A DNA stretch of 64,000 nt from Schmidtea polychroa (Eukaryota). Made by a program: the position numbers and the translations under genes. Numbering within the stretch: position 1 is the first letter of the stretch; each line of letters starts with the position of its first letter. This document shows positions 29,361-47,515 of the stretch, piece after piece. Where the stretch lies: positions 2,792,001 through 2,856,000 of the forward strand of contig CM097885.1 of assembly GCA_044892525.1 (NCBI GenBank), in the 5' to 3' direction. The notes below the pieces were generated by a model. It had not been told where the DNA came from and made no database searches. It saw only the letters and a list, made by a program, of their open reading frames with translations.

Positions 29361-29699
29361 AAAACATTTCAATAAAAATTTGATTTATTTTGGCTTTTGA
29401 TCTGATTTATTATTTGCCTAATTATTATTATTGATTTATTATATGAGATTATTATTGTGATAATCATTGTCACCTCTCTCGTAATTTGATTTCGCTGTGT
29501 AAAATTAGTTCGGATCCAATTTCGCCTCGGGCTTCCTCTTGTCACTTTGAAGAATTTATCCATTGACGACTTACCTTAATTTGATTTTGAGGTTCTCTCA
29601 CATCGCTCGAGTTTTCCATTGTCTCGGGTTTTCCACTGTCTCTGATTCTCCATTAGTTAATATATTTTTAATAAATTTTAGTTTTTTATAATTAATGAC

Positions 29700-31037
29700 C
29701 CCCACTGAATTTATTTTATTATTATTTTAAAAAATATTATTTTTCAAGGTCAAATTTTTTTCTTTAAAAACAGGAGCCCGCGGGGACAAAGACATTTTTT
29801 TCCCAAGGTCATTTAAACAAAGACCATGACTCATTCAAGGTCATTCTCAAGGTCGTATGACTCATTCAAGGTCATTCTCAAGGCCGAATGACTCATTCAA
29901 GGTCATTCTCAAGGTCGAATGACTCATTCAAGGTCATATTATTATTTAAAAAAATATTATTATTTTTTTTTCAAGGTCAAATTTTTTTTTCTTTAAAAAC
30001 AGGAGCCCGCGGGGACAAAGACAATTTTTCCATGGTTCCCGCCAATGGAATTAATTTAACGATGACTTATTTTGAAGCCCACTACAAGACCTTTCGAATG
30101 AGGTATAGACATCCTTACTATCATTATTATTGGTAAAGATATTATTATTTTTTCAAAATATTATTTTTCAAGGTCAAATTTTTTTTTTTAAAAACAGGAG
30201 CCCGCGGGGACAAAGACATTTTTTTTCAAGGTCATTTAAACAAAGACCATGACTCTTTCAAGGTCATTCTCAAGGTCGTATGACTCATTCAGGGTCATTC
30301 TCAAGGTCGCATGACTCATTCAAGGTCATTCTCAAGGCCGAATGACTCATTCAAGGTCATTCTCAAGGTCGAATGACTCATTCAAGGTCATTCTCAAGGT
30401 CGTATGACTCATTCAAGGTCATATTATTATTTAAAAAAAATTATTATTTTTTTTTCAAGGTCAAATTTTTTTCTTTAAAAACAGGAGCCCGCGGGGACAA
30501 AGACATTTTTTTTTCAAGGTCATTTTTTTTCAAGGTCATTTTTTTCAAGGTCATTTTTTTTTCAAGGTCAAATTTTTTTTTCTTTAAAAACAGGAGCCCG
30601 CGGGGACAAAGACAATTTTTCCATAGTTCCTGCCAATGGAATTAATTAAACGATGACTTATTTTGAAGCCCACTACAAGACCTTTCGAATGAGGTATAGA
30701 CATCCTTACTACCATTATTATTGGTAAAGATATTATTATTTTTTCAAAATATTATTTTTCAAGGTCAAATTTTTTTCTTTAAAAACAGGAGCCCGCGGGG
30801 ACAAAGACATTTTTTTTTCAAGGTCATTTTTTTCAAGGTCATTTTTTAAGGTCATTTTTTTTCAAGGTCAAATTTTTTTTTCAAGGTCGAATTTTTTTTT
30901 CAAGGTAATTTTTTAAAATTTATATTTACAGAGTTCCCGCCAACGAAAATTATTCAACGATAGCTCATTTTAAAGCCCAATTCAAAACCTTTCGTATCAG
31001 CCATATATCTTATTATTAATATTATTATTTCTAAAGA

Positions 31038-31116
<79 letters not shown>

Positions 31117-31420
31117 CTATGTACTCTGAGTTTATCCGACAAAATATTCTGTCCCCCTATGGGTAATGCTCACAAAGGTAATGGTAAAAAGGGTACTACT
31201 CGCATTCAACATGTCTCAAACGGTATAATATAATTTTTATTAAATTTAGACCAACTTAAATCAATAAATGGTAGGACAAAAATATATTACGTTGCGGTAT
31301 TTTAAAATTTAAATATATTTTAAAAACTTATTTTGACGCTAAAGTTGACTTATTTAACAAAGACACAATTATTGCACATGCTTTGCATAAATATTATTAT
31401 TATTTATTATTATTATTATT
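29700..31420. repeat. Polinton subterminal repeat region: GGAGCCCGCGGGGACAAAGAC units, 31-bp TGACTCATTCAAGGTCATTCTCAAGGTCGTA arrays, (ATT)n and a ~90-bp CCGACAAAATATTCTGTCCCCCTATGGG repeat
   Basis: Directly visible; the ~90-bp unit recurs inverted at ~40525-40600. Confidence 0.85.
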
Positions 31421-31676: not shown

Positions 31677-32061
31677 TTAACCATCAAATTTTTTATACAA
31701 CAACCATGCCAAACAGTGTTGACCACATGTTTGAGTCAATGGATTTTGAAACATAGTTTTATTATATACAATAGGTTTCCCAATTGTTTGAAGTTTTGAT
31801 ATCAACAAAGCCGGGTAATAAAAACCCATAGGATCGAATACGAATATATTACTAGGTTTCACATATATAGCTATCCAATGTTCTCCACCAAGATGAGACG
31901 AATGAGTATTGACAATTATGGCTTGATTATTGCTCAAATAAGGAATTTTATCGAGAGGAAAAACTCCTACAAATTCATTTCCTAATATTTGTTTTCCAAT
32001 TCGATTAACCTGAACAGAACTACTTTAATAAAATTAAACATTATCAAAAAACTTACTCCAT
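31677..32061 (-). CDS. Adenain-like cysteine maturation protease (start in a 5-nt micro-exon; putative 34-nt intron 32023-32056)
   Basis: FVGVFPLD, IVNT..S..GGEHWIAIY, FDPMG, Q...TQTCGQHCL (H-D-Q-C catalytic set); ATGGA|GTAAGT..AAAG|T restores MDSSVQVN. Confidence 0.88.
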
Positions 32062-32089
32062 GACAACTTTTTTGTGTTTCTGTATACAT

Positions 32090-33313
32090 TTATACTAGCA
32101 CGGTTCTATTTGCAGTAATTTGAACTTCATTTTCAAATACTCCATATATTATAACATGTACCGGTTCTGTAATGGCCTTTGCAAACTTAATATTCAGTCG
32201 TAAATTCCCGTTTTGTGGTAGTTGACTCTGATTTAAATCAAAATCGAGAGCTAAAACAAATGTGAAAAATGGGTATTTGCTTTTAAATTCTTCTAGAGTT
32301 ATTCTACAATTCAAGTTTTTATCTAAATAACCAAGATTTCTAACAATATTCTGCATATATGTCGCACAGTAATTATCGCTTTCGAAATCTTGAGTATATT
32401 TTTCTCTATAATCAGTATTTTTCGACAAAGTCAATGAAGTAACACCAAAATTTTTGAAAATTGAGCTGGAAGCAGTATAAGATCCATTATATTGCGTTTC
32501 ACTTTGAAATGTTACCAGAATAAAATTAGGCATTCTTCTATCACCAAATATTTGTTCTTTATAGAATGATGAAGCACCTTTAGCAATAGCGAATTGTACA
32601 ATTTCCTTTGTTTTTAAAGGATAAATTGCATGTTTTGAATTAAGACCTAATTGGTGACCCGCTAATACTGAGGGGTCTACTCGAACTCTTCTCACCAATA
32701 ATTTTGCATCAACTAATTGACATATTGGTGCACCAGTTGCACTAGTAAGAGGTAATGCAGAATCAGACCTTTTCAGTCTAATATGTACATTAACCCCCGG
32801 TAGTAAATATTTCGGTTGATCCATAAAATCGATTTGTAATGATGAGCACATGGTGAAAACCTTTGAGCCTTTAACCCACTTTTTTCTTTCATCATCTGCT
32901 GCTGCATAACCCATGGGAGTAAGACATGTATTTTTAGTATCGAAATTGTAATTTAAAATAGTTTCTATCAAAGCCTTGTGAATGAATGTATTATTTCCGC
33001 CCTCAATCTTGATATTATTAAATCCCAACACTGCATCTTTAAAAAGAGTATGAAACATGAAATTGTTCGGTATTACATCAGCATTGGCATCCAAAACTTT
33101 TCTATCTTTATCTACAACCTTGATCTGAACAGTCAATAACGTATCGTTCAAATCTAAATATTCAGTTTGCGAACCATTAATATAAAACTCGATATCATTT
33201 CTACTATCGGTAATTGAATTCATAGGAAAAACTTCCTCAAATGCCCCAAATTCTATTACAGCCTGGGGCGATGGTCTATCAAATATACATAATTCAGATT
33301 TACCACAAATCAT
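32090..33313 (-). CDS. Polinton major capsid protein (double jelly roll, PY/hexon-like)
   Basis: 407 aa; KSELCIF..P.PQ, IEFYI.G...YLDL, QPKYLLPGV.V.I.L.R, FDL......GNLRL.I.FA. Confidence 0.9.
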   Translation of the reverse strand: MICGKSELCIFDRPSPQAVIEFGAFEEVFPMNSITDSRNDIEFYINGSQTEYLDLNDTLLTVQIKVVDKDRKVLDANADVIPNNFMFHTLFKDAVLGFNNIKIEGGNNTFIHKALIETILNYNFDTKNTCLTPMGYAAADDERKKWVKGSKVFTMCSSLQIDFMDQPKYLLPGVNVHIRLKRSDSALPLTSATGAPICQLVDAKLLVRRVRVDPSVLAGHQLGLNSKHAIYPLKTKEIVQFAIAKGASSFYKEQIFGDRRMPNFILVTFQSETQYNGSYTASSSIFKNFGVTSLTLSKNTDYREKYTQDFESDNYCATYMQNIVRNLGYLDKNLNCRITLEEFKSKYPFFTFVLALDFDLNQSQLPQNGNLRLNIKFAKAITEPVHVIIYGVFENEVQITANRTVLV

Positions 33314-33672
33314 TTTGCAAATATAGTTCCATGTCCTTTCATTCGTTTGTTTATACGTGATATTCCATGTCTTTTACGCTTTGGAGCTGGAGCTGGAGGC
33401 GTATCTTTTTGAAACATACCTGCAACCCCAGGTAAAACTTTCCCTAATTCAGCTAAAGCATTTGTTTTTAGAGATGGTAATATTTTCTGTTCATTCATAA
33501 TAACATCTTTTGCAGTTTTCATACCAAAACTACCAATACGTTTAAGAATAGGCAATGCAAATCTACCAATTGTTCTCAACCATCCCGATCCGTACTGTTT
33601 ACCAATAAAATATGGTAATTCACCGCCAGATTGGCTACCACTATACATACTAATAATATCAGAATTAGCCAT
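33310..33672 (-). CDS. Small basic virion core protein (pVI/pVII-like)
   Basis: QSGG and QYGSG protease-site-like motifs followed by amphipathic WLRTIGRFALPILKRIG; basic C-terminus; lies between mCP and MCP. Confidence 0.7.
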   Translation of the reverse strand: MANSDIISMYSGSQSGGELPYFIGKQYGSGWLRTIGRFALPILKRIGSFGMKTAKDVIMNEQKILPSLKTNALAELGKVLPGVAGMFQKDTPPAPAPKRKRHGISRINKRMKGHGTIFAK

Positions 33673-34708
33673 TTATTTTACGAAAATGTAATGTCAAATG
33701 AGTTTTTGAACCTTTTGGAAAGTTTATAAGTTTTCCACTATCATCACAAATATTTATTTCTATATTGTTTATACATGAACTTGCTATTGGTAAATACATG
33801 GGATTATCGATATTTATATTGACAACTTCATCATGTTCATATTTTCCAATCCATACCGATTTCAAAAGAGGAACACTGGAATCACCAACAATTATGGGTT
33901 CGATAATGTTAGTATATATGAACATTTGTTGATGATGTTCTAGTATTCTTGGTTTGTGTATACCAATCGATTTTTCTCTATATTTTTGCTTATCTAATCC
34001 AAGTGAATTTGCCAAATTTTTATCAAATGTAACTTCGCAAATATCCTCATTCAAACTGAAGGTAAACATCAAATCTTTCACAATTTCCAAATTTTTAAAT
34101 ATGTGTGAACAATTGAACTTTAAATATTTAAGTAAATCATCAAGTTTATCAATATATAATTCATCAGCAAAGGTAAATGATTCTTCAACTTCATCATTAT
34201 ACGACACAGATATTTTGATTTCTTCTTTCATTACACTGTTTGCTTCAAATAGATTAAAACGTAATAAATACTCGGTCTCTGTAACAATATTTTTCAACTT
34301 ATTGCAACCCATTCGTTTGGCATCTTCAATTTTTTCGAATGTTATTGTAAATGGTTTAAAATCACAACTGATATTTAATCCATCCTTGTAAAACATATAG
34401 CAATGCGAATCTAATATTTGATTCGGAATATGATATGTTTTATCATAATTACTAATAACAAAGATACCGCTACATGTTTTCACAATATTCCTTCTGAAAT
34501 CAATCTTACAATGACTATAAAATGGGAATGTGTTGTACACGAATGTAAAATCTTGCAGTGCAACTTCCCAGTCACCATTTAAAGAAATCGGATTTTGGAT
34601 ATTGACCATAAATTTACTGGCTTGATTGTCTGGATGAATTAATGGGCAACTATTGCTCGGTAAAATAGTATAAAAATTCACTTTACTAGGTCTTTTGCTG
34701 ATATCCAT
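33665..34708 (-). CDS. Minor capsid protein (penton-like, PX); in frame with the upstream integrase
   Basis: FYTILPSNS..HPDNQASKF..I.L.GDWEVAL; FIYTNIIEP.IVGD..VPLL; Y.P.....INNIEI.I.D..G..I.F..G.....LHF. Confidence 0.85.
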   Translation of the reverse strand: MDISKRPSKVNFYTILPSNSCPLIHPDNQASKFMVNIQNPISLNGDWEVALQDFTFVYNTFPFYSHCKIDFRRNIVKTCSGIFVISNYDKTYHIPNQILDSHCYMFYKDGLNISCDFKPFTITFEKIEDAKRMGCNKLKNIVTETEYLLRFNLFEANSVMKEEIKISVSYNDEVEESFTFADELYIDKLDDLLKYLKFNCSHIFKNLEIVKDLMFTFSLNEDICEVTFDKNLANSLGLDKQKYREKSIGIHKPRILEHHQQMFIYTNIIEPIIVGDSSVPLLKSVWIGKYEHDEVVNINIDNPMYLPIASSCINNIEINICDDSGKLINFPKGSKTHLTLHFRKING

Positions 34709-34709
34709 G

Positions 34710-35275
34710 ACGGGTTTATCCTTACCGACCTTTTTAGTTTTCAATATTTTTTGAATTCTAAATACTTTTGGGGGAGGAATGACTTGTAATTCCTGCTCAT
34801 AAAATTTCCCTTGTACAATATTATTATCATTGTCTTTGATGACATACATTACAGGATTCTGTTTAGTATTTATTTTTGAAATTACAAAGACTTCATCACT
34901 CCAATTTGTATCAAAATGTTTAATAAATGGTGATGCACTAATTTTACTAATTCTAACATGGTCACCGACTTTATATTTAGGTTTTGCAATTTTTACAGAT
35001 TTCTTAGAATAAAATGTTTTTGATGTAATATCAACAGGTCTCAATCCATTCAGTCCTCGATGTGATGAATGATTATAACTTGTTATTATTTTCGGTAAAG
35101 CATTTACCCATTTTTTATTACCTTGATGCACGAACAATTTCTTTAATCTATCTCTCAATGTTCGATTAAATCTTTCAACATGGGCAGCTTTGTATTGAGA
35201 ATGTACCGAGTAGTGATTTATTTTCAGTTTATCGAGGATTTGCTTAACTTTGCTATTGTAGAATTCTTTACCTAA

Positions 35276-35370
<95 letters not shown>

Positions 35371-35758
35371 CTAAATCTGTTTACAAGTTATTAGGATGTC
35401 CATCTTTAAATAAAATATTAATTGCCTTGGACATTTCTTCTGCAGATTTTGCCTTGACTGGTATTGCTCGTGCAAACCTGCTGTATACATTAATACATGT
35501 TAAAATATATTTATTTCCATTGTTAATTTTCGAATAAGGTATCATCTCCATCAAATCCATTTGCCATAAATCGTCAATACCAAATGTTTTATATGCTCTT
35601 GTTGGAAATCTTTTCCGCATTGGTTTGTTCAAACTGTACGCAAGCTGATCTGATAACCACTTCTGGGTTTCTTTTTTCGAATTCGGAACTCTTTTCTCTA
35701 ATTTTGCCACTCCACCGAAACCGGCTTCGTCTTCTGGGTTCGTCCAAATCTTCTCCAT
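34710..35758 (-). pseudogene. Retroviral-like (c-INT) integrase with a 99-nt microsatellite intron (35272-35370), a nonsense codon at 35381-35383 and a truncated chromodomain
   Basis: WQMDL, L*TDLG|KEFYN, KAAHVERFNRTL, YNHS.H, KYKVGDHVRISK, NWSDEVF, GKFYEQELQ. Confidence 0.9.
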
Positions 35759-35819
35759 TACAACAAGAAGATTTAAAATTAAATTTAATGTCGGGCAATG
35801 AAGGATTAGCACCCATTGT

Positions 35820-36347
35820 TTATGACTGTGTAACTCCACCTAATAATGATAATGCCAGAGGTATCAATGCACCAATAAATCCACCTTGTTGTTTATCTAT
35901 AATTTTCCTCATTTGCTTACGATTTTTATTATTTACTAAAGATAACAATGCTTTCCTATGTTTGCTCAATAAATGCTTTTTTGATTTACTGATTTTAATT
36001 TTGCCTTTGACTACTTTAAGTATAATATTGAGTAAATCATCGACAACGAAATTTGGGAATGATTGCAATATATTCATTCTTTTCATACTCGGGGCCTTTA
36101 ACAATGCATTAAGAAATGGAAAACTGCGGTGATTTTTAACTACTTTTTTACTGGTTTTACTGGTTTTACGGGTTTTACGTTTAGGTTTAGGATTTTTCGA
36201 AATAAGATTCATTGCAGAGAAATTTTCAGTTACAAGTTTTTTAGATGGTGTATAACTAGTTGTTGGTGGAACTTTTGGAACTTTAATACTCTTTCTAATA
36301 CTTTTTCTTAATTTCCTAATATTTTTCACCCTTGCTTTTAGAAACAT
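35820..36347 (-). CDS. Basic virion core protein with adenovirus pX-like C-terminus
   Basis: Lys-rich; ends QQGG/FIGALIPLALSLLGG, resembling adenoviral pX GG/FLPALIP. Confidence 0.7.
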   Translation of the reverse strand: MFLKARVKNIRKLRKSIRKSIKVPKVPPTTSYTPSKKLVTENFSAMNLISKNPKPKRKTRKTSKTSKKVVKNHRSFPFLNALLKAPSMKRMNILQSFPNFVVDDLLNIILKVVKGKIKISKSKKHLLSKHRKALLSLVNNKNRKQMRKIIDKQQGGFIGALIPLALSLLGGVTQS

Positions 36348-36365
36348 TATTATTCATAGAGGTTT

Positions 36366-36992
36366 TCAACTTTGTTTATAAACCATGGCACCTTTTGGGT
36401 TGAAAATATCGGTTTTTACTCGTAAATCATCGGGACATTGTTGTGTGAAATCAAGAAATATATATCCATGAGGTATTTTTGTAGCATCTTGAAATGCACT
36501 GATAAGAAAATTACGATTGTTAGGGTATGCTTGACGTGCAAGAAAATCAATCACTGTTGCATCTCTAGGATTCTTGAAAATAACTAAATATTGTACATTT
36601 AAATTACGTGTTCGATGTGCCCCACCTTGATGAAATAGATTTTGTGTTATGAAAATAACTGTTACACCGACATGTCTGCTGATCTTTGTAAATAAATTAT
36701 TAAAATCTTTTTCTTTATTAGCTTCTTGATACAGATCATCGATAATAATGACATCACCTTTCTTTAATCGGCTGGACCAGTTTTTATCGAATCCCTTTAC
36801 TATTTTCATGTTTTTTAATTTACAGAAACTTGATTGAGTTAATCCATGTTCTTCATCAGCACCCTTATGCCAATAAATCCTGTTGAATTTTGATTTGAAT
36901 AAATTTGATTTTAGTAATTTACAAACAAATAATGTTTTTCCACTACCACTCGGACCAACGATTTGGTATACTGCATCATTTCTTAATTCCAT
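36366..36992 (-). CDS. A32/FtsK-HerA family genome-packaging ATPase
   Basis: Walker A GPSGSGKT, Walker B IIIDD, SRH, ITQN, R..N..YLV.FKNPRD. Confidence 0.92.
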   Translation of the reverse strand: MELRNDAVYQIVGPSGSGKTLFVCKLLKSNLFKSKFNRIYWHKGADEEHGLTQSSFCKLKNMKIVKGFDKNWSSRLKKGDVIIIDDLYQEANKEKDFNNLFTKISRHVGVTVIFITQNLFHQGGAHRTRNLNVQYLVIFKNPRDATVIDFLARQAYPNNRNFLISAFQDATKIPHGYIFLDFTQQCPDDLRVKTDIFNPKGAMVYKQS

Positions 36993-37097
36993 TTCAAAAA
37001 TTTTATAAATATATATATGTATTTGTTTATATTCAATGATTTAATGAACTCGTGCTCAATTTGTATATAAAGACAAATTTTCATAAATGATTTAATA

Positions 37098-37535
37098 ATG
37101 TTAGCAAATATAAATTATCGAGGAAATTTTGATGTATCGAATATGAGGTTCCCACCAGGGAAACCCCAGCAAATTATCGATAGAAGCGGGAAATATCCGA
37201 TAATATTTTTCAAGACTGGTAAATGCAGAATCATGGGATGTAAGAAACCCTTGGATATTAATAAATTACAATATCGAATAAATAATATTATAATCCAATC
37301 AATTACCGTTACTATGGATATGGGACATAGTATCAATCTATATAACATATCGAAAAAATGTGATTGTATGTTTGAACCGGAATTGTTTCCGGCGCTAAGA
37401 CTATTAAAATATAACCCTATATGTGTCAACGTGTTTGCTAGTGGAAAGGTTGTCATGCTGGGGTTGAGAAATTTGGAGTATAGAGAATTTGTTGACAATG
37501 TTCGAAATGAGATAATTTCATTGGTCGATTTCTAA
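37098..37535 (+). CDS. TATA-binding protein (TBP)-like protein
   Basis: Two TBP half-repeats: IIFFKTGKCRIMG and IQSITVT.DMG..INL...FEPELFPAL...VNVFASGKVVMLG. Confidence 0.8.
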   Translation: MLANINYRGNFDVSNMRFPPGKPQQIIDRSGKYPIIFFKTGKCRIMGCKKPLDINKLQYRINNIIIQSITVTMDMGHSINLYNISKKCDCMFEPELFPALRLLKYNPICVNVFASGKVVMLGLRNLEYREFVDNVRNEIISLVDF

Positions 37536-37606
37536 TTGGTTAATTTATAATTGGTTATTGATTGATTTAAACAAACGGTTTGTGTTTAGAATTCATTTAT
37601 TTCACT

Positions 37607-38010
37607 ATGTACAAAATACCAAGCGCAGCGAATTTAATGAAAGAAATAGATGATTATGGTAAATTTTTATTTTTTGTTTACAAATTTAAATATTATATTT
37701 TTCAGAAGAATATGCTGCAGTCATGCTAAAGAAGTTAGCATTCTATTATCCAGAAATCAATGCAGTAGTATACAACAAGCCTGCAGAATTAATCCCCGAT
37801 TTGGTGTTCAATGCGACGGGGATAAGGATGTTAGAGATTTTCCATCAATTTATGTGGGATGTGAAGATAAATCGAACAATTAAACATGTGGATCCAGAAT
37901 ATTTATGTTACAATAGCTGTTCCTGCTGCAAAGCTAGATATCAGCGATATGTAGAATGGGTTTTGGTTAAAACTCTTCGGGATTTCCACCATATCAAGAA
38001 TGCATTTTGA
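37607..38010 (+). CDS. Hypothetical protein, 2 exons (intron 37659-37705), Cys cluster
   Basis: GT-AG intron joins MYKIPSAANLMKEIDDY in frame to EEYAAVMLKK..; AATAAA follows the stop. Confidence 0.6.
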
Positions 38011-38372
38011 ATGTTTTTAACAAATAAATGTTATTTAGTTTTCGTTATTTTGTTTTTGATATTTTATATATTTTGATAATAATAATAATAGTAAAAATAT
38101 TAATAATAATGAAACATATTAATAATAAATCTGAAAATAGAACATGTAATAATTAAAACACATAAATAATAAATCTGTAAATAGAACATATAATAATTAA
38201 AACACATAAATAATAAATCTGTAAATAGAACATATAACAAAACATGTGACAATGCAACATCAATGCATTTTGAATGCAATTTAAACAAAGACATGCTATA
38301 ATCTGATTGGTTGATAGGCATGAGTCAAAGGTATAAAAACCCTGTAACATTTAAATTTATTCATTATTCACG

Positions 38373-38783
38373 ATGACCAAGAAAATTTCAAGCACCGAAA
38401 AACCTAAAGAAATGGTACAACCATTTCAAATGTTCCACAACTACAAAATGTATTTTTTGAAAGAAGAAATCAATATGAAATTGGTTGCACCAGTCAAGCT
38501 AATTCCAACTAAATTTCAATTCTTATCCGGCACGCTTTCAATGATTGATGTCAAAACTATTGATGATGTTTTTAAACGGATAGATTCGAATCTATCGTGT
38601 AATCAACATGCATGGTTCAACAATAGATATGCAAGATTTTATGATGCTTTTGATGAAATCAGTTTCAAAGAAAATGAAAATTGGTATATAACAATTGCAA
38701 TCCAGGGATATAAAGTTGATAATAATGATGTATATTCTCCTATTTGGAAAATTATGTCTGCTAGACTTTCACAAATATTTTAA
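38373..38783 (+). CDS. Hypothetical 136-aa protein, possibly an OB-fold ssDNA-binding protein
   Basis: ORF with upstream CCAAT/TATA and downstream AATAAA; beta-rich aromatic C-terminus WYITIAIQG..YSPIWKI. The fold is inference. Confidence 0.5.
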   Translation: MTKKISSTEKPKEMVQPFQMFHNYKMYFLKEEINMKLVAPVKLIPTKFQFLSGTLSMIDVKTIDDVFKRIDSNLSCNQHAWFNNRYARFYDAFDEISFKENENWYITIAIQGYKVDNNDVYSPIWKIMSARLSQIF

Positions 38784-38910
38784 TGTTATATTTAATAAAT
38801 GTATCAGTCAGATTTGTTTTTTCTCTTTATTAATTGCAACATAAATTCAAATGACATGCAAATTTAACAAAGAAAATCTATAAACAAACTTATAATATAG
38901 TTTTAAAGTG

Positions 38911-39287
38911 ATGAAAATGACTGCAGAAAAAGGTTAACATGATTAATTAATTACCGAATTATTTATTATTTAGAATTTTTAATCAACTTTTTGTTGGAAA
39001 AGTTAGCAGAAATAGCTGGTGTGAAAATTGAGGACATATTATCTATTACAAATGCCTTAAATATCGGCTGGATAGTTGAGAGTCAAGATACAGGATTTGA
39101 TGATCAGGAAGAAGAAACTCAAGAAACTGATACTCAAGAAATTGATGAGGAAATATATGAACCTATAGATGAACCTATAGAGGAGCCTAAAGATGAACCT
39201 AAAGATAATATTACGAATGATTGTATTGATCATGTCGTTGAAAATATAATGAAATGCGGAGATGACGACTGCGAATGTGTTAATTAA
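38911..39287 (+). CDS. Acidic hypothetical protein, 2 exons (intron 38933-38973)
   Basis: MKMTAEK E|FLINFLLEK in-frame splice; E/D-rich EPID repeats; AATAAA overlaps the stop. Confidence 0.55.
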
Positions 39288-39364
39288 TAAATCTTAGTTA
39301 GTTAGTGTTTGTAAATTTATTTAAAATTTTATTTAAAAATGAAACAAAATAACTATATTAATTT

Positions 39365-39879
39365 TTATTTAAAAAATCGCGATAAAGCATGCAAAATAGC
39401 AACACCTGTTGCAAGTTTTATATAGTTTTTAAATTTCATTTTCTGTTCATCTATTTCCTTCGCATTTCTGGCGAGTTGATTCAGTACGCCCCATCCGCCA
39501 TTGGCTTCAATCCATGGTTGAAACTTTGACTTGATTATCTAGAAAATATATATTAATAAAATATAGATTATAAAAGTATTACTTCTTGAGACCACTGATA
39601 ATAATGTTCAGAGTCCCATAAACTTCTTTCGATTATGATCTTCATATAAGCGAACCCTACTAGTATTCGGGTCCACTTCATCTCATCATCGCATAGACAG
39701 TTAAAAATCCTATGAAAATAGAATTTTTTCGTTTCGAGGCAATCGCAATTGAGCATATCTTCATAATCAATATGATTTCCTTCTATAATCTTTTCGGTCC
39801 GATCGACCAGGAAACTGAGGCTTTCCATAATCTTCTTGTTGATAAGTTCGCTTAAAAGATTTTCCATAAAATGAGACAT
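39365..39879 (-). CDS. Bcl-2 family protein, 2 exons (44-nt intron 39539-39582)
   Basis: BH1-like DEMKWTRILVGFAY in exon 1; spliced exon 2 IIKSKFQPWIEANGGW (BH2) and hydrophobic tail YIKLATGVAILHALSRFFK*. Confidence 0.82.
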
Positions 39880-39984
39880 CTCTACAATAATTTAAAATAT
39901 GATGTTTTATTTATACTAATACCGTATGATTTTGATTGGTTGATAGACTATAAATGTAAAAGAAAGGTTTTGATTTGATACACC

Positions 39985-40485
39985 ATGAAAACTATATTCA
40001 TATTGCTAATTATTATAACGAGTGTGTGCTCACACAATACAACAATAACAGTGGAGTCTTTTAATAAATCAATATGTGTTTGTCCGAATACCGCCAAGTT
40101 GATGGATATTTTATATATCCTCGATAAACCAAAATGGTCAAAGCATCCAGGAAAAAGAATATCTCAAAGATTGGAGAATTTAGAAAACAGTTATGAACTA
40201 TCATTTGCATATATACAAAATATAAAAATTAAATTGATTGATCATATTGAAGTTTTCAATAACTCTATTGTTGAAAATAAGAAGAATATGAAAATTATTG
40301 ATAAGAAGCATGATTATTTGTTAAAAAAGATTGAATTATTATTAAGAGAAATTCAAACAATCAAAGGATCAATAGAATATCTGAAAATCAATTCAACGTT
40401 ACCAATTTCAAACAATAATGCTGCGAATAGTAGTACATCAATATTAGGTTTACCTTTGTTAATTTTACATTATTTTTTTGTTTAA
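39985..40485 (+). CDS. Secreted or GPI-anchored coiled-coil glycoprotein
   Basis: Signal-like MKTIFILLIIITSVCS, several N-x-S/T sequons, heptad-rich middle, small-residue stretch plus hydrophobic end NAANSSTSILGLPLLILHYFFV. Confidence 0.6.
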   Translation: MKTIFILLIIITSVCSHNTTITVESFNKSICVCPNTAKLMDILYILDKPKWSKHPGKRISQRLENLENSYELSFAYIQNIKIKLIDHIEVFNNSIVENKKNMKIIDKKHDYLLKKIELLLREIQTIKGSIEYLKINSTLPISNNNAANSSTSILGLPLLILHYFFV

Positions 40486-40647
40486 ATAAATGTATGTTTT
40501 GTTGATTTGTTTAATAATACCCTTGTGAGTTGTTGAGGGTGAGCAGTACCCTTTTGAGCATTACCCATAGGGGGAGAAAATATTTTGTCGGATAAACTCG
40601 GGGCAGTACCCTTGCGAGCAATACCCAATAATAATAATAATAATAAC

Positions 40648-40734
<87 letters not shown>

Positions 40735-40869
40735 TTAAGTCTTACCTGATTGGGTGAATGATAAATCACCCGCAAATTTCTTCATATAATTAAAGTCTTA
40801 CCTGATTGGGTGAATGATAAATCACCCGCAAATTTCTTCATAAAATTTGCTATAAATTTGCTATAAATT

Positions 40870-41439
40870 AGTGTCTGACTAAAAAATTAATAACCTTTAT
40901 ACTACTAATGATAAAAATTATTTCTATGGCTCAAAAGATTTGTCTTCGTCGGGGCTTCAAAATGAACTATAAAATGTTAAAATACTTTGAGATTTAGACT
41001 ACGTTTTGGGCTGACGAAAAGTAGGACTCCGCCAGCACAGATAATAATATTTTTGAAAAATAATAATAATTTTTTCATCAATCAGTGTCTGACTAAAAAA
41101 TTATTTTTATGGTTCAAAAGATAGATCTCCGTTTGGGCTTCAAAATGAACTATAAATTTTTAAAATATTTTAAGTTTCAGATTATGGTTTGGGGTCACGA
41201 AAAGTAGGACTCCGCGAGCACAGTTAATAATATTTTTGAAAAATAATAATAATTTTTTATGAGTCATCGGATGAGTCATTGTCTTTGTTCTAGACGAGTG
41301 ATGAGTCATCGGATGACTCATTGTCTTTGTTCTCAAGTCGACCTTGAAAAAAAAATTTTAAAAAATTTTTTCCTGCCGGGGGGGGGGGGGGGTACTGTGC
41401 TCGCGGAGTCCAGTTTTCCCGGTGCCCAAACCACCTACT
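40870..41439 (-). repeat. Polinton right terminal region (duplicated ~190-bp unit, TGA(G/C)TCA repeats, G-run, terminus)
   Basis: Minus strand reads AGTAGGTGG..GGACTCCGCGAGCACAGTACCCCCC..GGAAAAAATTTT..TCAAGGTCG, the same layout as 24663. Confidence 0.7.
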
Positions 41440-42724
41440 TGTATATATAATATCCATAAAATATTAATATTTTTCAAAATCACTGAACCATAAGATCCCT
41501 CCAACAAAAAAATCACAATTGAGCAATGCTGCGAGAAAACTTATATGTATCAAATTTGATTCCGGCCAAAGCGTAAAAAAAATTGCTGCAGATCTCGTTA
41601 TGAACTATAAAACTGTTTATAGTATTATTAGCATTTACAAGACGACAGGAAGGATTGATAAAATGGAAGATAGAGGGTGCAAGTCCAAAAAATTGAGCGA
41701 AGAGCATTTAGTTTTTCTAAAAGAAAAAATTTCCGATGATTGTTCTACTCCGTTCAGAGGTATGAAAAGAGGTTTGAGTGAGTCTATGAATGTTAACGTA
41801 TCGTTGGCCACAATTCATAGGTCAATCAAAGACTTTAATTTTTCTTTTAAACGAGTAGCCTTAATTCCCGCTGCCCGCAACACTGCGGAAGCTATTGAGC
41901 GCAGGTATGAGTATGCCAATGAATATTTGGCATTAAACGAGGACCATGTCTTTTTCCTTGATGAAAGCGGTTTCAATTGCTCGATGAGATTGGGATATGG
42001 ACGAAGCGAAGTAGGGTCGCCTGCTCGCAAAGAAGTGAGAAGTATACGAAGTAAAAACTATTCAGTGTGCTCAGCAATCAGCAAAATGTAGATTTTGAAT
42101 TTTAAAGTTGTAGAAGGTGGATACAATGCAGAGATGTTTACAAATTTTGTCGCCCAATTTATAGGAAATCTACGATCGAAAGGAATATCGACAGGTACGA
42201 TTATAATGGATAATTGTACAATACATAAAAGTGTTGGCGTACGCGATTTGATCAACAATTCTGGATTTACGTTACGCTTTTTACCCTCTAATTCGCCGCA
42301 ATTAAATCCGATTGAAGAGTGTTTCTCGAAATGGAAATCAATTGTCAAATCGGCTAACGTTCTAAATGTAATCGAGTTGAAAAACGCTATTGAAATGGGA
42401 CACAATTCGATAACCACGGAGGATTGTATCGGATTTTTCAACGACACGAGAAGGTTTGCATTAAAGGCGGTAAGAAGAGAAGAATTCTGATTAAAAGTTT
42501 TAACTACCAATTTTTACTCTATCATGATTTCATTTAAAGTGTATATAATATTTTATTACCCATAAAAATTCTGAATTCAATTTAAAACAGTTCTGATTTC
42601 TATTAAAGAAATTCTGACTTCAATTGAAAAAAATTCTGATTTCATTTGAAAAAATTCTGATTTCATTTGAAAAAATTCTGAATTCATTTGAAAAAAATCT
42701 GATTTCAATTGAAAAAACCCTGTA
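41440..42724 (+). mobile_element. Tc1/IS630 element, left end replaced by the Polinton terminus
   Basis: Subterminal AAATTCTGATTTCA(A/T)TTGAA repeats at 42566-42716 ending CCCTG+TA. Confidence 0.7.
41519..42490 (+). pseudogene. Tc1/IS630-family DD34E transposase with one in-frame stop (42089-42091)
   Basis: HTH N-terminus; FFLDESGF, IMDNCTIH, LPSNSPQLNPIEE (34 residues between D and E). Confidence 0.9.
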
Positions 42725-45700
42725 TTATATTTGAACATTTAGCTAATGAAAAAGTGAATAAATTTATGAAATGTTACATTATTTAATATTAAATCATTTC
42801 AGTAGCTCTTAATAAAATATAACAAATTAAGTGAAGGTTTCAATGCCTTACGCCTTAGGGATTCATGCCATTTTGTATTTCATTGCAACCTTCTGTGGAT
42901 CTCAATTTGCTAATTCTGTCATTTTTATTGTTGACGCACAAAGATATAAATTATTTTCAGGTATTTCTTTTTCATTTATTTATCTTTTCCTATTGCGCTT
43001 ATGTGAAAATACGGAAAGATAAATTGCCTAAAGGTTCCTGATTAGATATTAGTTTGTGTGTATGTGAAACATTTTACATATTTTATATAATATATTTCTA
43101 TTTATTATTATATTAAATAAAATCAAAGACAGAAGGCAGATTTACTAATTGATAAGCGCAACTAAATATATTGCATAACATCACATATATATTTTGACCG
43201 TTTAGCAATCCCCTTCACGCTAGAAATCGTATTAATAACAACTAAATGAAAATAAGACAATTTTTAATAAAATCTTTTTTTTGGAAATATAAACATTTCT
43301 GTAAAAATGATCGAGTAAAGGAGTTGATTAAATGTGTTATTGAATTAGTCAAGTAGTATATAATGAGGACTCCAGGACACTTTCAAGGTCATGGAATATC
43401 AAGATCAAATATAGGTCAATTGAATCATTTATTATTATTATTATTATTTTATTTTTTTTTTTAAATTAACATTTTATTTAATTACTTCTTTTTAATTTTT
43501 TCTTTATAATTTTATTAATTAATTATTTTATGATGTTATATTTTAATTACTTACTTTAGTTAATTTTTAATTTATTACATTTAATTAATTAATTTGTTTT
43601 TTAATATTTTGTTTTAATTACTAACGTTATTTAATTATTATTATTATTATTTATTTTATTTATTTATTTTTTTTTTAATTTTACATTTACATTATATTCT
43701 AACAAGAACGTAAATTATAACAATAATATTTCAATTTGAATAAAATTTTAATTAGTAATTATTCAATTCGAATAAAATATGAATAAAATCCTAAGAAAAT
43801 TACGTTAACTGTATGAAAAATACAAATTTATCGTAAAAACATATGTGTATTACACACAACATACGAGACGTAATTTTCTTAGGATTTTATTCATATAATA
43901 TATAGATAAAATTTAATTTTCTATAAAATGGATTGATTAGAAATTATGTATCTTGTTTTGCGTGTAATACACACATGTTTTATGATAAATTTGTATTTAT
44001 TATACGTTAACGTAATTTCCTTGGATATTTATTCATATATTATATAGATAAAATTTAATTTTCTATAAAATGGATTGATCTAGAGTTTAAAATGTTGTAT
44101 TATTTTATTACTTTGTTGCAATATTTTTATAATCTTATAACAATTTGCTTAAATATCTTACATCTGGTGAAATATTTCCGAAATATGTTATTACTTTGTT
44201 GTAATTTACTGAAAGACTTCACAATTTATTACAATATTCTTTTTAATTTGTTGTCCGTCTTCGAAATAATGTATTGATTTGTCCCAATTAACATCATTAT
44301 TTTATTACTTTGTTGCAATATTTTTATTATTTTAGTTACAATTTGATAAATATTTTACAACTTTGTTGAAATTTTCTGAAATATGTTACTACTTTGTTGT
44401 AATATTTTCTAATCTTGTTACAATTTGCTTAAATATTTTACAACTGTTGAAAATTTATCTGAAATATGTTATTACTTTGTTACAATTTTATGAAAACGTT
44501 ATTACTGTTTTGCAATTTGATGAAAAATGATATTACTTTGTGGGTTCATCACATTATTTTTTATTAAATTATTATGAAAATGTTAAATAAGTCAACTTTA
44601 GCATCAAAATGTGTTTTAAAATATATTGAACTTTTAAAATACTGCAACGTAATGCATTTATTTTTCCTACCCCTTCCTTGATTTTGATTGGTCAGAATTT
44701 AATCATGTGTAATATATAAGCAGTAACTTTTCAAATGTTTGTCATTTAAACTTTTAATTTAACTTATATAAGTGAATAATTTTTTATTCTCTATCTAATA
44801 TTAATGATTATTTTCTTTTAGTGAACGGATGCAGTTTATATAAATTTTGTATTGCCGAAAGTCATGAAGATGTGGAGAACTGTAAATCAGTTACTCTACC
44901 TTATCGGGTTACATATGTCCGGAATGTCTCATTATATCACCAGGTAGGTGGTTAATGTTTGTACGACAACACGGACACCATCTTAGAAGATTCGAAGAAA
45001 CGAAGAGCAGGATGATCACTAAAAGTAATACTCTTTCTACTATTAACAATTATTAATTTTTTATAGTACAATCGAAAATGAACACATCATACGATCCTAA
45101 GCAGATTAAAGAATATGTTACAAGTTATGTTATTTAAGTTGTTTAATATTAATTATAAATATAGTTAGACCGTACTTGATTTATCCAAACTTCGCATGTA
45201 CCAATTTCAATATAAAGAACTACAGAGTTATAAAGAAGAATTCAATTGTCAAATTAATGTCGTAGCTGGTGACACAGATTCCTTCTTTTTAAAGTGTAAA
45301 AATGTAGATTTACGCTTACAACTATATCCAAAAATGATTGAAGATGGCCTCCTAGATACTTCAAATTATCCAGTGACCGATCCGTTGTTCTCTGATAAAA
45401 TCTGTTCTGTAATCGGGAAAGTTAAGGATGAGAATAAAGGAAATCAATATAAAGAATGGGTGTTTCTTCGACTTAAGTGCTACTCACTCCAAGGCGATAA
45501 AAACACTCTAAAAGCCAAAGGAATAAGACTTACAAATTCTAATATTACACATGAAGCCTATAAAAAAGTGTATACTGATGGTGGAACAGTGAGCATCCCA
45601 CAAAAAAGAATAGGAAGTGTCAATCATCAGTTGTATACTTTCATGACAGAAAAACGAGCTCTCCAATGTTTGGACGATAAAAGGTATTGGTACAATTGTA

Positions 45701-46369
45701 ATGAAAGTTATGCCTACGGTCACTATAAGATTCACCAAATGCATATTGCAACTGCTATGTCTAGAAATGAATGCAAATCGAAACAAGCACTTTAACAATT
45801 AAATTTATGTGAATAATAAAATATATATTGTGAATAATTTGTCTTCGTTAATTAAAATATGTTTTATCATTTAATAATTCATTTGTCCAATTATTTTAGA
45901 TAATTAGTTTCAAGTAAGAAATATTATTTTCGTGTTTATTTTATTTATTTATTTATTTTTTCCGGTTTATCTAAAATTACATCATCGTTTTATTTTATAA
46001 TAAATTAAATAATTTCTAATTAAAATTTTATTCGAATTGAATAATTACTAATTAAAATTTTATTCAAATTGAAATATTATTGTTATAATTTACGTTCTTG
46101 TTAGAATATAATGTAAATGTAAAATTAAAAAAAAAATAAATAAATAAATAAATAAAATAAATAATAATAATAATAATTAAATAACGTTAGTAATTAAAAC
46201 AAAATATTAAAAAACAAATTAATTAATTAAATGTAATAAATTAAAAATTAAATAAAGTAAGTAATTAAAAATATAACATCATAAAATAATTAATTAATAA
46301 AATTAAAGAGAAAAAAAAATAAATAAAATAAATAAATAGAAGTAATTAAATAAAATTAAAATTAAAAAA

Positions 46370-46402
<33 letters not shown>

Positions 46403-47515
46403 TAAATAGCGAAGGTAATTAAAATAAAATATTAATAAACTAATGAATTAATTAAATGTAATAAATTAAAAATTAACTAAAGTAAGTAATTAAAATATAA
46501 CATCATAAAATAATTAATTAATAAAATTATAAAGAAAAAATTAAAAAGAAGTAATTAAATAAAATGTTAATTTAAAAAAAAAAATAAAATAATAATAATA
46601 ATAATAAATGATTCAATTGACCTATATTTGATCTTGATATTCCATGACCTTGAAAGTGTCCTGGAGTCCTCATTATATACTACTTGACTAATTCAATAAC
46701 ACATTTAATCAACTCCTTTACTCGATCATTTTTACAGAAATGTTTATATTTCCAAAAAAAAGATTTTATTAAAAATTGTCTTATTTTCATTTAGTTGTTA
46801 TTAATACGATTTCTAGCGTGAAGGGGATTGCTAAACGGTCAAAATATATATGTGATGTTATGCAATATATTTAGTTGCGCTTATCAATTAGTAAATCTGC
46901 CTTCTGTCTTTGATTTTATTTAATATAATAATAAATAGAAATATATTATATAAAATATGTAAAATGTTTCACATACACACAAACTAATATCTAATCAGGA
47001 ACCTTTAGGCAATTTATCTTTCCGTATTTTCACATAAGCGCAATAGGAAAAGATAAATAAATGAAAAAGAAATACCTGAAAATAATTTATATCTTTGTGC
47101 GTCAACAATAAAAATGACAGAATTAGCAAATTGAGATCCACAGAAGGTTGCAATGAAATACAAAATGGCATGAATCCCTAAGGCGTAAGGCATTGAAACC
47201 TTCACTTAATTTGTTATCTACCCACTAGTATACTGTGAGCTTACCGTGCCAATATTACTATGCCCCTTGTGTATATTACACAATTATCGGGTAGCTGATG
47301 GTGACGTAATCATGCGCATTTTTATGTAACCGCTGGAATTTACATAAACCATGTGATCATCATATGTAATCATCTAGTTTGGTTTGACAGTTTTAATGAA
47401 CACTTGTCGGGATTTTAGATCTTTTTAAGAGCTACTGAAATGATTTAATATTAAATAATGTAACATCTCATAAATTTATTCACTTTTTCATTAGCTTAAT
47501 GTTCAAATATAATAT
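42723..47515. repeat. Large foldback: inverted arms ~42723-43778 and ~46025-47515
   Basis: Identical 63-aa ORFs on opposite strands (42831+ and 47014-); the right arm is interrupted at 47220-47418 by a copy of 7512-7702. Confidence 0.9.
45168..45795 (+). pseudogene. C-terminal fragment of a Polinton pPolB (polymerase motif C onward)
   Basis: VLDLSKLRMY, AGDTDSFF, LDTSNYP, IGKVKDE, LRLKCYS, KAKGI, KRAL..DDKRY, AYGH. Confidence 0.88.

What the first reader, a model, noticed from the sequence alone, without database searches (positions are those of the whole stretch)
39365..39879. Hidden spliced Bcl-2 homolog in the element
The ORF track shows only exon 1. Splicing the 44-nt GT-AG intron (39539-39582) adds WIEANGGW (canonical BH2 is W..NGGW) and a short hydrophobic tail flanked by basic residues. 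Exon 1 has a BH1 variant, KWTRIL in place of NWGRI. Known: the BH1 Gly shapes the BH3-binding groove, and viral Bcl-2s are divergent apoptosis inhibitors. Inference: an E1B-19K-like function, notable beside TRAF survival-signalling genes.
Basis: partly seen in the sequence, partly recalled or inferred. Interest (0 to 1): 0.76.

Follow-up and report, generated by a model that had tools for sequence, protein, structure and literature searches.

The report
Spliced Bcl-2-like gene in a Maverick
A virus-like Maverick/Polinton transposon fragment in an AT-rich animal genome carries a small two-exon relative of the cell-death regulator Bcl-2, a kind of cargo already reported for such elements, that most likely helps keep the host cell alive.

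Summary
On the minus strand a 99-codon exon (39879-39583), a 44-nt GT-AG phase-0 intron (GC 11% against 35% in both exons) and a 57-codon exon (39538-39365) give a 156-aa product. Each exon on its own ranks Bcl-2 proteins first. Of six possible GT-AG pairs, only the 44-nt one scores well above exon 2 alone against an independent Bcl-2 profile (27.4 bits, others 16.8-20.0). Splicing was not seen in RNA and the full fold could not be predicted. The gene lies in the accessory block of a defective 9-kb fragment of a many-copy Maverick/Polinton and shares that element's TATAAA word. A pro-survival role is likeliest but inferred: the BH1 glycine is threonine in 7 of 7 sequences and the tail is only weakly hydrophobic. 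The TRAF link is not supported: the TRAF genes lie 10 and 16 kb away, beyond unrelated repeats. Bcl-2 cargo in adintoviruses/Mavericks and intron-bearing Maverick cargo are both in print, and this scan noted a spliced Bcl-2 in a Polinton elsewhere in this genome (e1-7879924). New member of a known kind.

The parts
39583..39879 (-). Exon 1 of the Bcl-2-like gene (99 codons; predicted helices 1-6, with BH3 position and BH1)
   Evidence: (Pfam Bcl-2 E=0.034, top hit, below cut-off); six relatives at 60-89% identity
39539..39582 (-). 44-nt GT-AG phase-0 intron (inferred)
   Evidence: GC 11%; best of six GT-AG pairs against a Bcl-2 profile; not seen as an RNA junction
39365..39538 (-). Exon 2 (57 codons + stop): helix 7, BH2, basic linker, tail
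   Evidence: 46 of 46 PDB sequences matched at E<=10 are Bcl-xL or its fusions, best E=0.057
39661..39678 (-). BH1 variant KWTRIL (Trp and Arg kept, Gly position is Thr)
   Evidence: KWTRI in 7 of 7 family sequences; aligns to NWGRI of BCL2A1
39491..39514 (-). BH2 motif WIEANGGW
39380..39415 (-). Short, weakly hydrophobic C-terminal segment between basic residues (possible membrane anchor)
   Evidence: Kyte-Doolittle 1.93 over 11 and 1.30 over 17 residues; comparators 2.02, 1.81, 1.14
39880..39984 (.). 105-nt divergent promoter region shared with the 166-aa gene: TATAAA on each strand (39910-39915 for the Bcl-2-like gene) and a CCAAT-type word (39935-39939)
   Evidence: promoter function inferred
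39985..40485 (+). 166-aa ORF with hydrophobic N- and C-termini, divergent neighbour, function unknown
   Evidence: only weak coiled-coil hits
38917..39287 (+). Acidic ORF convergent with the Bcl-2-like gene, ends in a Cys-containing tail
   Evidence: no Pfam family
38373..38783 (+). 136-aa accessory ORF
   Evidence: no significant family
37607..38010 (+). Accessory gene with a candidate 47-nt GT-AG intron (37659-37705)
   Evidence: unspliced ORF 40 aa; 100 open codons after the acceptor in the phase needed
37098..37535 (+). TBP-like gene
   Evidence: Pfam TBP E=2.3e-15
36366..36992 (-). A32-type packaging ATPase
   Evidence: Pfam Pox_A32 E=3.6e-07
35820..36347 (-). Basic 175-aa ORF
   Evidence: no family
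33665..35758 (-). Retroviral-type integrase, broken in this copy (in-frame stop at 35381-35383; 99-nt microsatellite-filled GT-AG insert 35370-35272), running in frame into a probable penton
   Evidence: Pfam rve E=3.3e-05; the penton label is recalled from motif and position, no call confirms it
33310..33672 (-). 120-aa ORF between probable penton and capsid genes
   Evidence: no family
32090..33313 (-). Probable major capsid protein (407 aa)
   Evidence: Position, size and recalled motifs only; no significant hit; single-sequence model unusable
31677..32024 (-). Adenain-type protease, interrupted at its 5' end in this copy
   Evidence: Pfam Peptidase_C5 E=1.6e-06

Best explanation
The gene is real cargo of a Maverick/Polinton (adintovirus-like) family. 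It is transcribed in the nucleus from the element's own TATAAA-type promoter, the host spliceosome removes a 44-nt host-style intron, and the product is a compact 156-aa Bcl-2-family protein (helices 1-6 from exon 1; helix 7, BH2 and a short basic-flanked tail from exon 2). It most likely sits on or near mitochondrial/ER membranes and holds back the host's Bak/Bax or BH3-only proteins, so that a cell in which the element replicates linear DNA and integrates does not die first. Shown: gene anatomy, motifs, register, location among element genes, many diverged copies. Inferred: splicing (about 0.9), Bcl-2 fold (about 0.9), membrane anchoring (about 0.6), pro-survival action (about 0.65). This copy lies in a defective fragment and may itself be silent.
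For: Exon 1 alone: Pfam Bcl-2 is the top family (E=0.034); 7 of 7 family sequences hit it, best E=0.0008; BCL2A1 is the best PDB match (E=0.27, 6 of 10 rows; top six of 13 rows, E=0.039-0.052); ESM Atlas best clusters are Bcl-2 (0.93, 209 of 256 features). Exon 2 alone: 46 of 46 PDB matches are Bcl-xL. Among 120 viral ORFs picked only by the exon-2 motif, the exon-1 profile ranks first the two that Pfam confirms as Bcl-2. Against an 8-sequence Bcl-2 profile without this family, the 44-nt model gives one domain of 27.4 bits; five other GT-AG pairs give 16.8-20.0, exon 2 alone 18.7; shuffling exon 1 reaches the score in 1 of 1000 trials, shuffling exon 2 in 0 of 1000. Only the 44-nt model puts a Trp 12 residues before the BH2 Trp, as in 3 of 8 comparators. 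Residues 48-99 are 49-50 of 52 identical in five relatives and 38 of 52 in the sixth. TATAAA lies 15-60 nt upstream of 9 of 11 element starts, this gene included, against 29 of 379 other ATGs. The BH1 Arg, which makes the hallmark BH3 salt bridge (PMC9609553), is kept in 7 of 7; the BH3 position lacks the small residue before Asp in 7 of 7 and the Asp itself in 3 of 7, which argues against a killer. Anti-apoptotic Bcl2 and IAP homologs are reported in adintoviruses (PMC8502044).
Against: No single sequence search of either exon is significant on its own; exon 1 is far below Pfam's cut-off (15.1 against 31.4 bits). The Atlas recognition value (1954) is under the level at which that tool trusts a high score, and exon 2 gave no usable Atlas hit. 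Profile-profile comparison gave only 3.4% probability over 24 columns. The ranking test that worked on viral loci failed on metagenome loci: the exon-1 profile did not list three clear Bcl-2 ORFs at E<=5 and placed a fourth seventh. Seven of the eight comparators were chosen by a BH2-like motif, so the exon-2 score is partly circular. BH1-to-BH2 spacing is 39, against 42-45 in 8 of 8 comparators. The distant relative P0002 has Gly, not Val, after the exon-1 end, so its donor is not in the same phase or place. The BH1 Gly is Thr in 7 of 7; changing this Gly removes pro-survival activity of Bcl-2 and KSHV Bcl-2 (PMC2836074). The tail is short and contains His.
Confidence: 0.6

Rival explanations
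1. Spliced Bcl-2-fold protein whose groove is closed or retuned by the BH1 Thr; it acts outside mitochondrial apoptosis, for example on innate-immune signalling or autophagy, as some viral Bcl-2-fold proteins do.
For: BH1 Gly replaced in 7 of 7 sequences; short helix 5-6 region; weak tail; non-apoptotic, out-of-groove roles of Bcl-2-fold proteins are described in PMC7022251 (Introduction read).
Against: BH2 and the BH1 Trp and Arg are intact; 2 of 8 comparators above Pfam's cut-off also lack the Gly (Pro, Ala); vaccinia F1L has a divergent BH1 and is still anti-apoptotic (PMC9609553, PMC2836074; passages).
Confidence: 0.22
2. No splicing: the gene makes only the 103-aa ORF, or is a decayed Bcl-2 gene in which 44 AT-rich bases were inserted; exon 2 is a relic.
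For: Public gene calls of six relatives are the unspliced 103-108 aa form; the element copy is broken elsewhere; no spliced product was found among public proteins.
Against: All six relatives are unnamed ENA entries, probably called without a splice model (inference). GT-AG ends, polypyrimidine end, size and GC match other short intron candidates in the window; removal is exactly in phase and restores the helix 6-BH2 register; exon 2 is open and keeps BH2; the codon after exon 1 is Val (GTN) in 6 of 7 sequences.
Confidence: 0.08
3. A pro-death, Bax/Bak-like or sensitising protein that kills the cell late to release particles.
For: Multi-motif Bcl-2 anatomy with a tail; an intron upstream of BH2 is unlike cellular pro-survival genes, whose BH motifs share one exon (PMC7022251); one Atlas cluster named BAX-like scored 0.87 (lead only).
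Against: The BH3 position reads L-x3-V/I-D/E/N with no small residue, whereas a BH3 motif is required for killing (PMC7022251); best sequence matches are pro-survival BCL2A1 and Bcl-xL.
Confidence: 0.06
4. The TRAF pair forms the terminal inverted repeats of one 30-kb element, so TRAF and the Bcl-2-like gene are one survival-signalling cargo.
For: A 1.9-kb inverted duplication holding TRAF genes brackets the region; planarian Burro LTR elements carry both MATH/TRAF and BCL2-like domains (PMC6431247).
Against: Arms are only 91% identical and fade into AT-rich DNA without (AGT)n ends; between them lie satellite arrays, a Tc1/mariner-type transposase, a separate inverted-repeat element (42723-47514) and ten copies of a dispersed repeat across the window, two of which bound the Maverick core; TRAF genes are greatly expanded in planarians (PMC6109357).
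Confidence: 0.12

Closest known systems
Bcl2 homologs of adintoviruses / animal Mavericks (Starrett et al. 2021, PMC8502044; section 3.2 read, labels of Supplementary Fig. S2 read)
   Same: Bcl-2-family accessory gene on an element with adenain, packaging ATPase, rve integrase and capsid genes; 'Bcl2' is labelled 3 times in the supplement text.
   Different: The paper's text has no occurrence of 'splic' and its one 'intron' concerns maturases; no planarian genus names or TBP were found in the readable supplement. Here the gene has an intron, a KWTR BH1 and TBP-like neighbours. Fig. S1 (slides) could not be read.
[quoted passage not shown]
   Same: Best PDB matches for exon 1 and exon 2 respectively; BH1 Trp/Arg, helix-6 Trp, BH2 and motif order kept.
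   Different: No BH1 Gly; short N-terminus; weak tail; intron before BH2, whereas two cellular-looking comparators have GT right after GGW and a stop within 3-6 codons (L155, L170).
Intron-bearing cargo genes of nematode Mavericks (Widen et al., bioRxiv 10.1101/2022.07.12.499685; passages read)
   Same: Host-derived, intron-containing genes in a variable region of a Maverick whose core genes are described as intronless.
   Different: Cargo there are WASP proteases and KRMA kinases; 'Bcl' and 'apopto' do not occur in that text.
Planarian Burro LTR retrotransposons (PMC6431247; passages read)
   Same: A mobile element carrying a BCL2-like motif (with BIR and MATH/TRAF), in what may be the same host group.
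   Different: Retroelement polyprotein domain, not a free spliced gene on a DNA element; relationship between the two Bcl-2 sequences was not tested.
Adenovirus E1B-19K
   Same: Divergent Bcl-2-type protein on a virus of the same broad lineage (recalled); likely the same purpose.
   Different: Neither exon matches PF01691 at E<=1; an Atlas cluster with 20% E1B-19K members ranks 12th at 0.85, below Bcl-2 clusters. An analogy of function, not membership.

Membership tests
Bcl-2 family (PF00452) | Whole protein reaches the Pfam gathering score (31.4 bits) | tested here: inconclusive
   Only the exons could be scanned: exon 1 15.1 bits, exon 2 no family. Whole model 27.4 bits against a home-made 8-sequence profile.
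Bcl-2 family (PF00452) | BH1 with Trp and Arg at the start of helix 5 | tested here: met
   KWTRI in 7 of 7, aligned to NWGRI.
Bcl-2 family (PF00452) | BH2 motif W-x4-GGW after BH1 at family spacing | tested here: met
   WIEANGGW; spacing 39 against 42-45 in 8 comparators, helix-6 Trp in register. Depends on the inferred splice.
Bcl-2 family (PF00452) | Helical bundle around a central helix 5 | tested here: inconclusive
   Model of the 103-aa ORF only: all-helical, pLDDT 64.5, pTM 0.43; fold searches gave no clear match to anything.
Bcl-2 family (PF00452) | C-terminal membrane anchor (present in many members) | tested here: inconclusive
   Hydropathy 1.30 over 17 residues, within the comparators' range 1.14-2.02 but short.
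Canonical pro-survival Bcl-2 proteins | Gly of the BH1 GR dipeptide | tested here: not met
   Thr in 7 of 7; importance of the Gly from PMC9609553 and PMC2836074.
Canonical pro-survival Bcl-2 proteins | Binds BH3 motifs and blocks Bak/Bax killing | not testable with these tools
   Needs binding and rescue assays.
Pro-apoptotic effectors (Bax/Bak) | BH3 motif L-x3-small-D (pattern recalled) | tested here: not met
   Val or Ile at the small position in 7 of 7; Asp in 4 of 7.
Adenovirus E1B-19K (PF01691) | Sequence match to the family | tested here: not met
   No match for either exon at E<=1 or for 7 exon-1 sequences; the whole product was not scanned.
Maverick/Polinton (adintovirus-like) | Adenain protease and A32/FtsK packaging ATPase | tested here: met
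   Peptidase_C5 E=1.6e-06, Pox_A32 E=3.6e-07, both above cut-off.
Maverick/Polinton (adintovirus-like) | Retroviral-type integrase | tested here: met
   rve E=3.3e-05 on the N-terminal piece (below cut-off), gene broken in this copy.
Maverick/Polinton (adintovirus-like) | Major and minor capsid proteins | tested here: inconclusive
   Candidate ORFs in the expected place; no significant hit; single-sequence model pLDDT 33.
Maverick/Polinton (adintovirus-like) | Protein-primed PolB and terminal inverted repeats with target duplication | tested here: not met
   None found around the 31.7-40.5 kb core of this copy; a PolB-like C-terminal piece (45169-45795, DTDS motif recalled, no Pfam hit) lies inside another repeat. 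Hence 'fragment', not a complete element.
Spliceosomal GT-AG intron | Junction present in RNA | tested here: inconclusive
   Only contigs could be laid; 15 of 75 joints were shown, all from run X7.

The most novel reading that the evidence does not exclude
A many-copy Maverick family in (probably) a planarian keeps, under selection and with its own TBP-like factor and promoter word, a spliced Bcl-2 with a Gly-less BH1 groove that protects transposing stem or germ cells from DNA-damage apoptosis. With the BCL2-like domains of Burro retrotransposons this would be convergent capture of death regulators by two unrelated mobile elements in one host group, and could be tested by RNAi in the living host.
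Probability: 0.25. Interest if true: 0.62.

Novelty: new member of a known kind. Interest (0 to 1): 0.36.

Why it matters
A host-survival gene is useful mainly to something that replicates in and must outlast a cell, so a conserved Bcl-2 supports the view that Mavericks behave as viruses and not only as transposons. The intron shows nuclear transcription with host splicing and explains why ORF-based annotation truncates the gene and loses BH2, so such cargo is probably under-counted. A natural BH1 with Thr in place of Gly is a useful variant for understanding BH3-groove specificity. None of this is a new kind of system.

Tried and rejected
RNA evidence: no RNA holder listed (14 runs, none on record as RNA). 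Four runs were laid, all contigs: 15 of 75 joints were shown, all from the deep run X7, so a junction in the guessed-RNA runs could be among the 60 not shown; X3 has no cover in the two bins around the intron. No conclusion on splicing or expression. Complex prediction with the two exon products as separate chains: no answer, score 0.06; not evidence either way. Fold of the exon-1 ORF: low confidence; no Bcl-2 protein among the 50 VIA-align rows shown, no Foldseek match at E<=0.001 in PDB or BFVD, Bcl-xL at rank 2 with E=5.4; not used for or against. The full-length product was not folded, so the fold stays open. Single-sequence fold of the probable capsid protein was unusable. A mixed alignment of exon 1 with comparators was poor after BH1 and was dropped. 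Related loci: none for exon 1 in viral contigs or metagenome contigs, none for the capsid ORF; so intron conservation could not be checked in DNA of relatives. Longer homologs: none at E<=10 for the exon-1 alignment or exon 2. One DNA pattern found nothing. No whole genome is held. Variant analysis covers only the 16 differences in the gene among 40 shown of 390 (exon 1: 10 of 12 at third positions, 5 silent taken singly, all non-silent ones in residues 3-26; exon 2: 2 of 4 silent): a selected subset, treated as weak. Five alternative GT-AG pairs were rejected. TRAF-as-terminal-repeat was considered and judged unlikely. Literature searches for a spliced Bcl-2 in Mavericks or planarian Mavericks listed no paper on it by title or abstract; the library lacks most subscription papers.

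Full report
Observation. The minus strand has an ATG at 39879, 99 codons to 39583, then 44 nt that start GTAATA and end TTTTCTAG, then 57 open codons and a stop at 39365. The intron is phase 0 and the product would be 156 aa. Unspliced, the frame stops after 103 aa. WIEANGGW lies at 39514-39491 and KWTRIL at 39678-39661. W-x4-GGW occurs once in the window's six frames and 0.005 times per window in 200 block shuffles; GC is 35% in each exon and 11% in the intron. Shuffled exon 2 is open in 36 of 5000 trials. GT-AG candidates of 45-50 nt interrupt both TRAF copies, and a 47-nt one interrupts the element's gene at 37607, so the size is normal for this DNA.

Is it Bcl-2? Every single search is weak, but they agree. 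Exon 1: Pfam Bcl-2 is the top family (E=0.034, 15.1 bits, cut-off 31.4). All 7 family sequences hit it, best E=0.0008. In the PDB, 6 of 10 rows are BCL2A1 (best E=0.27) and 4 are falcipain-2; with the family profile the top six of 13 rows are BCL2A1. The ESM Atlas ranks Bcl-2 clusters first (0.93; 209 of 256 features), though its recognition value is below the tool's trust level. Exon 2: no Pfam family and no usable Atlas hit, but 46 of 46 PDB matches are Bcl-xL (best E=0.057). Among 120 viral ORFs picked only by the exon-2 motif, the exon-1 profile ranked L034 and L008 first; both pass Pfam's Bcl-2 cut-off (only 3 of the 120 were scanned). The same test on the six-frame ORFs of 77 metagenome loci failed: three clear Bcl-2 ORFs were not listed and a fourth was seventh. 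Profile-profile comparison gave 3.4%. The fold is untested: only the exon-1 ORF could be modelled (pTM 0.43).

Is the splice right? Six GT-AG pairs bring exon 1 into frame with BH2. Against a profile of eight Bcl-2 proteins from outside this family (seven pass Pfam's cut-off, L200 was not scanned), with X at the junction, the 44-nt model scores 27.4 bits as one domain. The others score 16.8-20.0, exon 2 alone 18.7 and exon 1 alone 5.4. Shuffling exon 1 reaches 27.4 in 1 of 1000 trials, shuffling exon 2 in 0 of 1000. Only this model places Trp96 twelve residues before the BH2 Trp, as in 3 of 8 comparators. Caveats: seven comparators were chosen by a BH2-like motif; BH1-BH2 spacing is 39 against 42-45; and the 60%-identical relative P0002 has Gly where the others have Val after exon 1, so its donor differs in phase or place. 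No RNA junction could be shown or excluded.

Family. Six relatives of the exon-1 ORF were found, five at 87-89% and one at 60% identity, all unnamed ENA entries ending just inside the intron. Residues 48-99 are 49-50 of 52 identical in the five and 38 of 52 in the sixth; residues 1-47 vary more. Run X7 laid 41,894 contigs on 37000-41000 at 85% or better, most of them under 99% alike, which shows many diverged copies but gives no copy number.

Context. The gene sits in a 9-kb block, 31677-40485: adenain protease (E=1.6e-06), probable capsid and penton ORFs (labels from position and recalled motifs; searches did not confirm them), rve integrase (E=3.3e-05), A32 ATPase (E=3.6e-07), then six accessory genes including a TBP-like gene (E=2.3e-15). 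TATAAA stands 15-60 nt upstream of 9 of 11 starts, this gene included, against 29 of 379 other ATGs (the control is not matched for composition and one start was off by a base). The gene shares a 105-nt divergent region with the 166-aa ORF. So it looks like integral cargo, not a neighbouring host gene. This copy is defective: the integrase has an in-frame stop, the protease is interrupted, and no PolB or element ends adjoin the block, which is bounded on both sides by a dispersed repeat with ten copies in the window. The TRAF genes are an inverted pair, 91% identical over 1.9 kb, about 10 and 16 kb away and separated from the core by satellites, a Tc1/mariner-type transposase and another inverted-repeat element. 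Their outer ends have no (AGT)n run. I read them as host duplicates; TRAFs are much expanded in planarians (PMC6109357, passages). The host is probably a planarian, but that rests on composition, the TRAFs and an earlier AI note, not on a test here.

Mechanism. Most likely the spliced product restrains host Bak/Bax or BH3-only proteins while the element replicates and integrates. For: BH2, the BH1 Trp and the BH1 Arg are kept, and that Arg makes the hallmark BH3 salt bridge (PMC9609553, passages); best matches are pro-survival proteins; the BH3 position lacks the small residue in 7 of 7 and the Asp in 3 of 7, and killers need a BH3 (PMC7022251, Introduction and passages). Against: the BH1 Gly is Thr in 7 of 7, and changing that Gly disables Bcl-2 and KSHV Bcl-2 (PMC2836074, passages), although 2 of 8 comparators also lack it and F1L works with a divergent BH1. 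The tail is short (1.30 over 17 residues; comparators 1.14-2.02). [quoted passage not shown] I put splicing and the Bcl-2 fold near 0.9 each and the whole pro-survival reading at 0.6.

What is known. Starrett et al. 2021 (PMC8502044; passages, section 3.2, supplement search and part 1 of the supplement) report Bcl2 and IAP homologs in adintoviruses; Fig. S1 was not readable and may show gene structures. A 2024 preprint (PMC11071296, passages) says most mammal-associated adintoviruses encode anti-apoptotic genes or candidate oncogenes. Widen et al. (bioRxiv 10.1101/2022.07.12.499685, passages) describe intron-bearing cargo in nematode Mavericks. Burro retrotransposons of planarians carry BCL2-like and MATH/TRAF domains (PMC6431247, passages). 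Six literature searches listed no paper on a spliced Maverick Bcl-2. Earlier notes of this scan describe a spliced Bcl-2-like gene in a Polinton and a six-gene accessory cluster with TBP and Bcl-2 elsewhere in this genome; look-ups by sequence found no look-alike, so I cannot say whether they are the same family.

Verdict. The function is a reasonable but untested inference, the TRAF link is not supported, and the cargo type is already described. New member of a known kind; interest 0.36.

Noticed in passing
window 35370-35272 (-): The integrase is interrupted by a 99-nt GT...AG stretch filled with an (ATT)n run, and both ends carry the same TTTAGGTA word: either an intron that arose at a duplicated AG|GT site or a microsatellite insertion.
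   Followed up: partly
window 37659-37705 (+): Second short intron candidate (47 nt, GC 11%) in the accessory gene after the TBP-like gene; so at least two accessory genes of this element look spliced.
   Followed up: partly
window 37098-37535 (+) and the starts of the element's genes: TBP-like gene together with a TATAAA word before 9 of 11 starts; noted several times before in this genome.
   Followed up: partly
window 34720 region (-): The integrase's chromodomain-like end looks cut short and runs in frame, without a stop, into the probable penton ORF.
   Followed up: no
window 42723-47514: An element with about 870-nt, 97-98% identical inverted arms encloses a PolB-like C-terminal fragment (45169-45795), a near-palindrome (43772-44043) and a dispersed repeat.
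   Followed up: no
window 27556-29472 (+) and 55698-57604 (-): Inverted pair of three-exon TRAF genes (RING, TRAF zinc finger, coiled coil, MATH), 91% identical, with intron candidates of 45-50 nt.
   Followed up: partly
window 31010-31400, 40540-40733, 52258, 52402, 54952, 55239, 58730, 60589, 63098, 63500: Dispersed repeat with an (ATT)n run and a conserved core, ten copies in both orientations; two of them bound the Maverick fragment in inverted orientation.
   Followed up: partly
window 3243-6104 (-): 953-aa open non-LTR reverse transcriptase ORF (Pfam RVT_1 E=2e-30).
   Followed up: no
window 39985-40485 (+): 166-aa ORF with hydrophobic ends and a coiled-coil middle, possibly a secreted or membrane-anchored protein, sharing a divergent promoter region with the Bcl-2-like gene.
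   Followed up: no
L138:3-407 (-), L167:645-1211 (-): Two metagenome Bcl-2 proteins above Pfam's cut-off whose BH1 also lacks the Gly (Ala, Pro) and has Lys for Arg.
   Followed up: no
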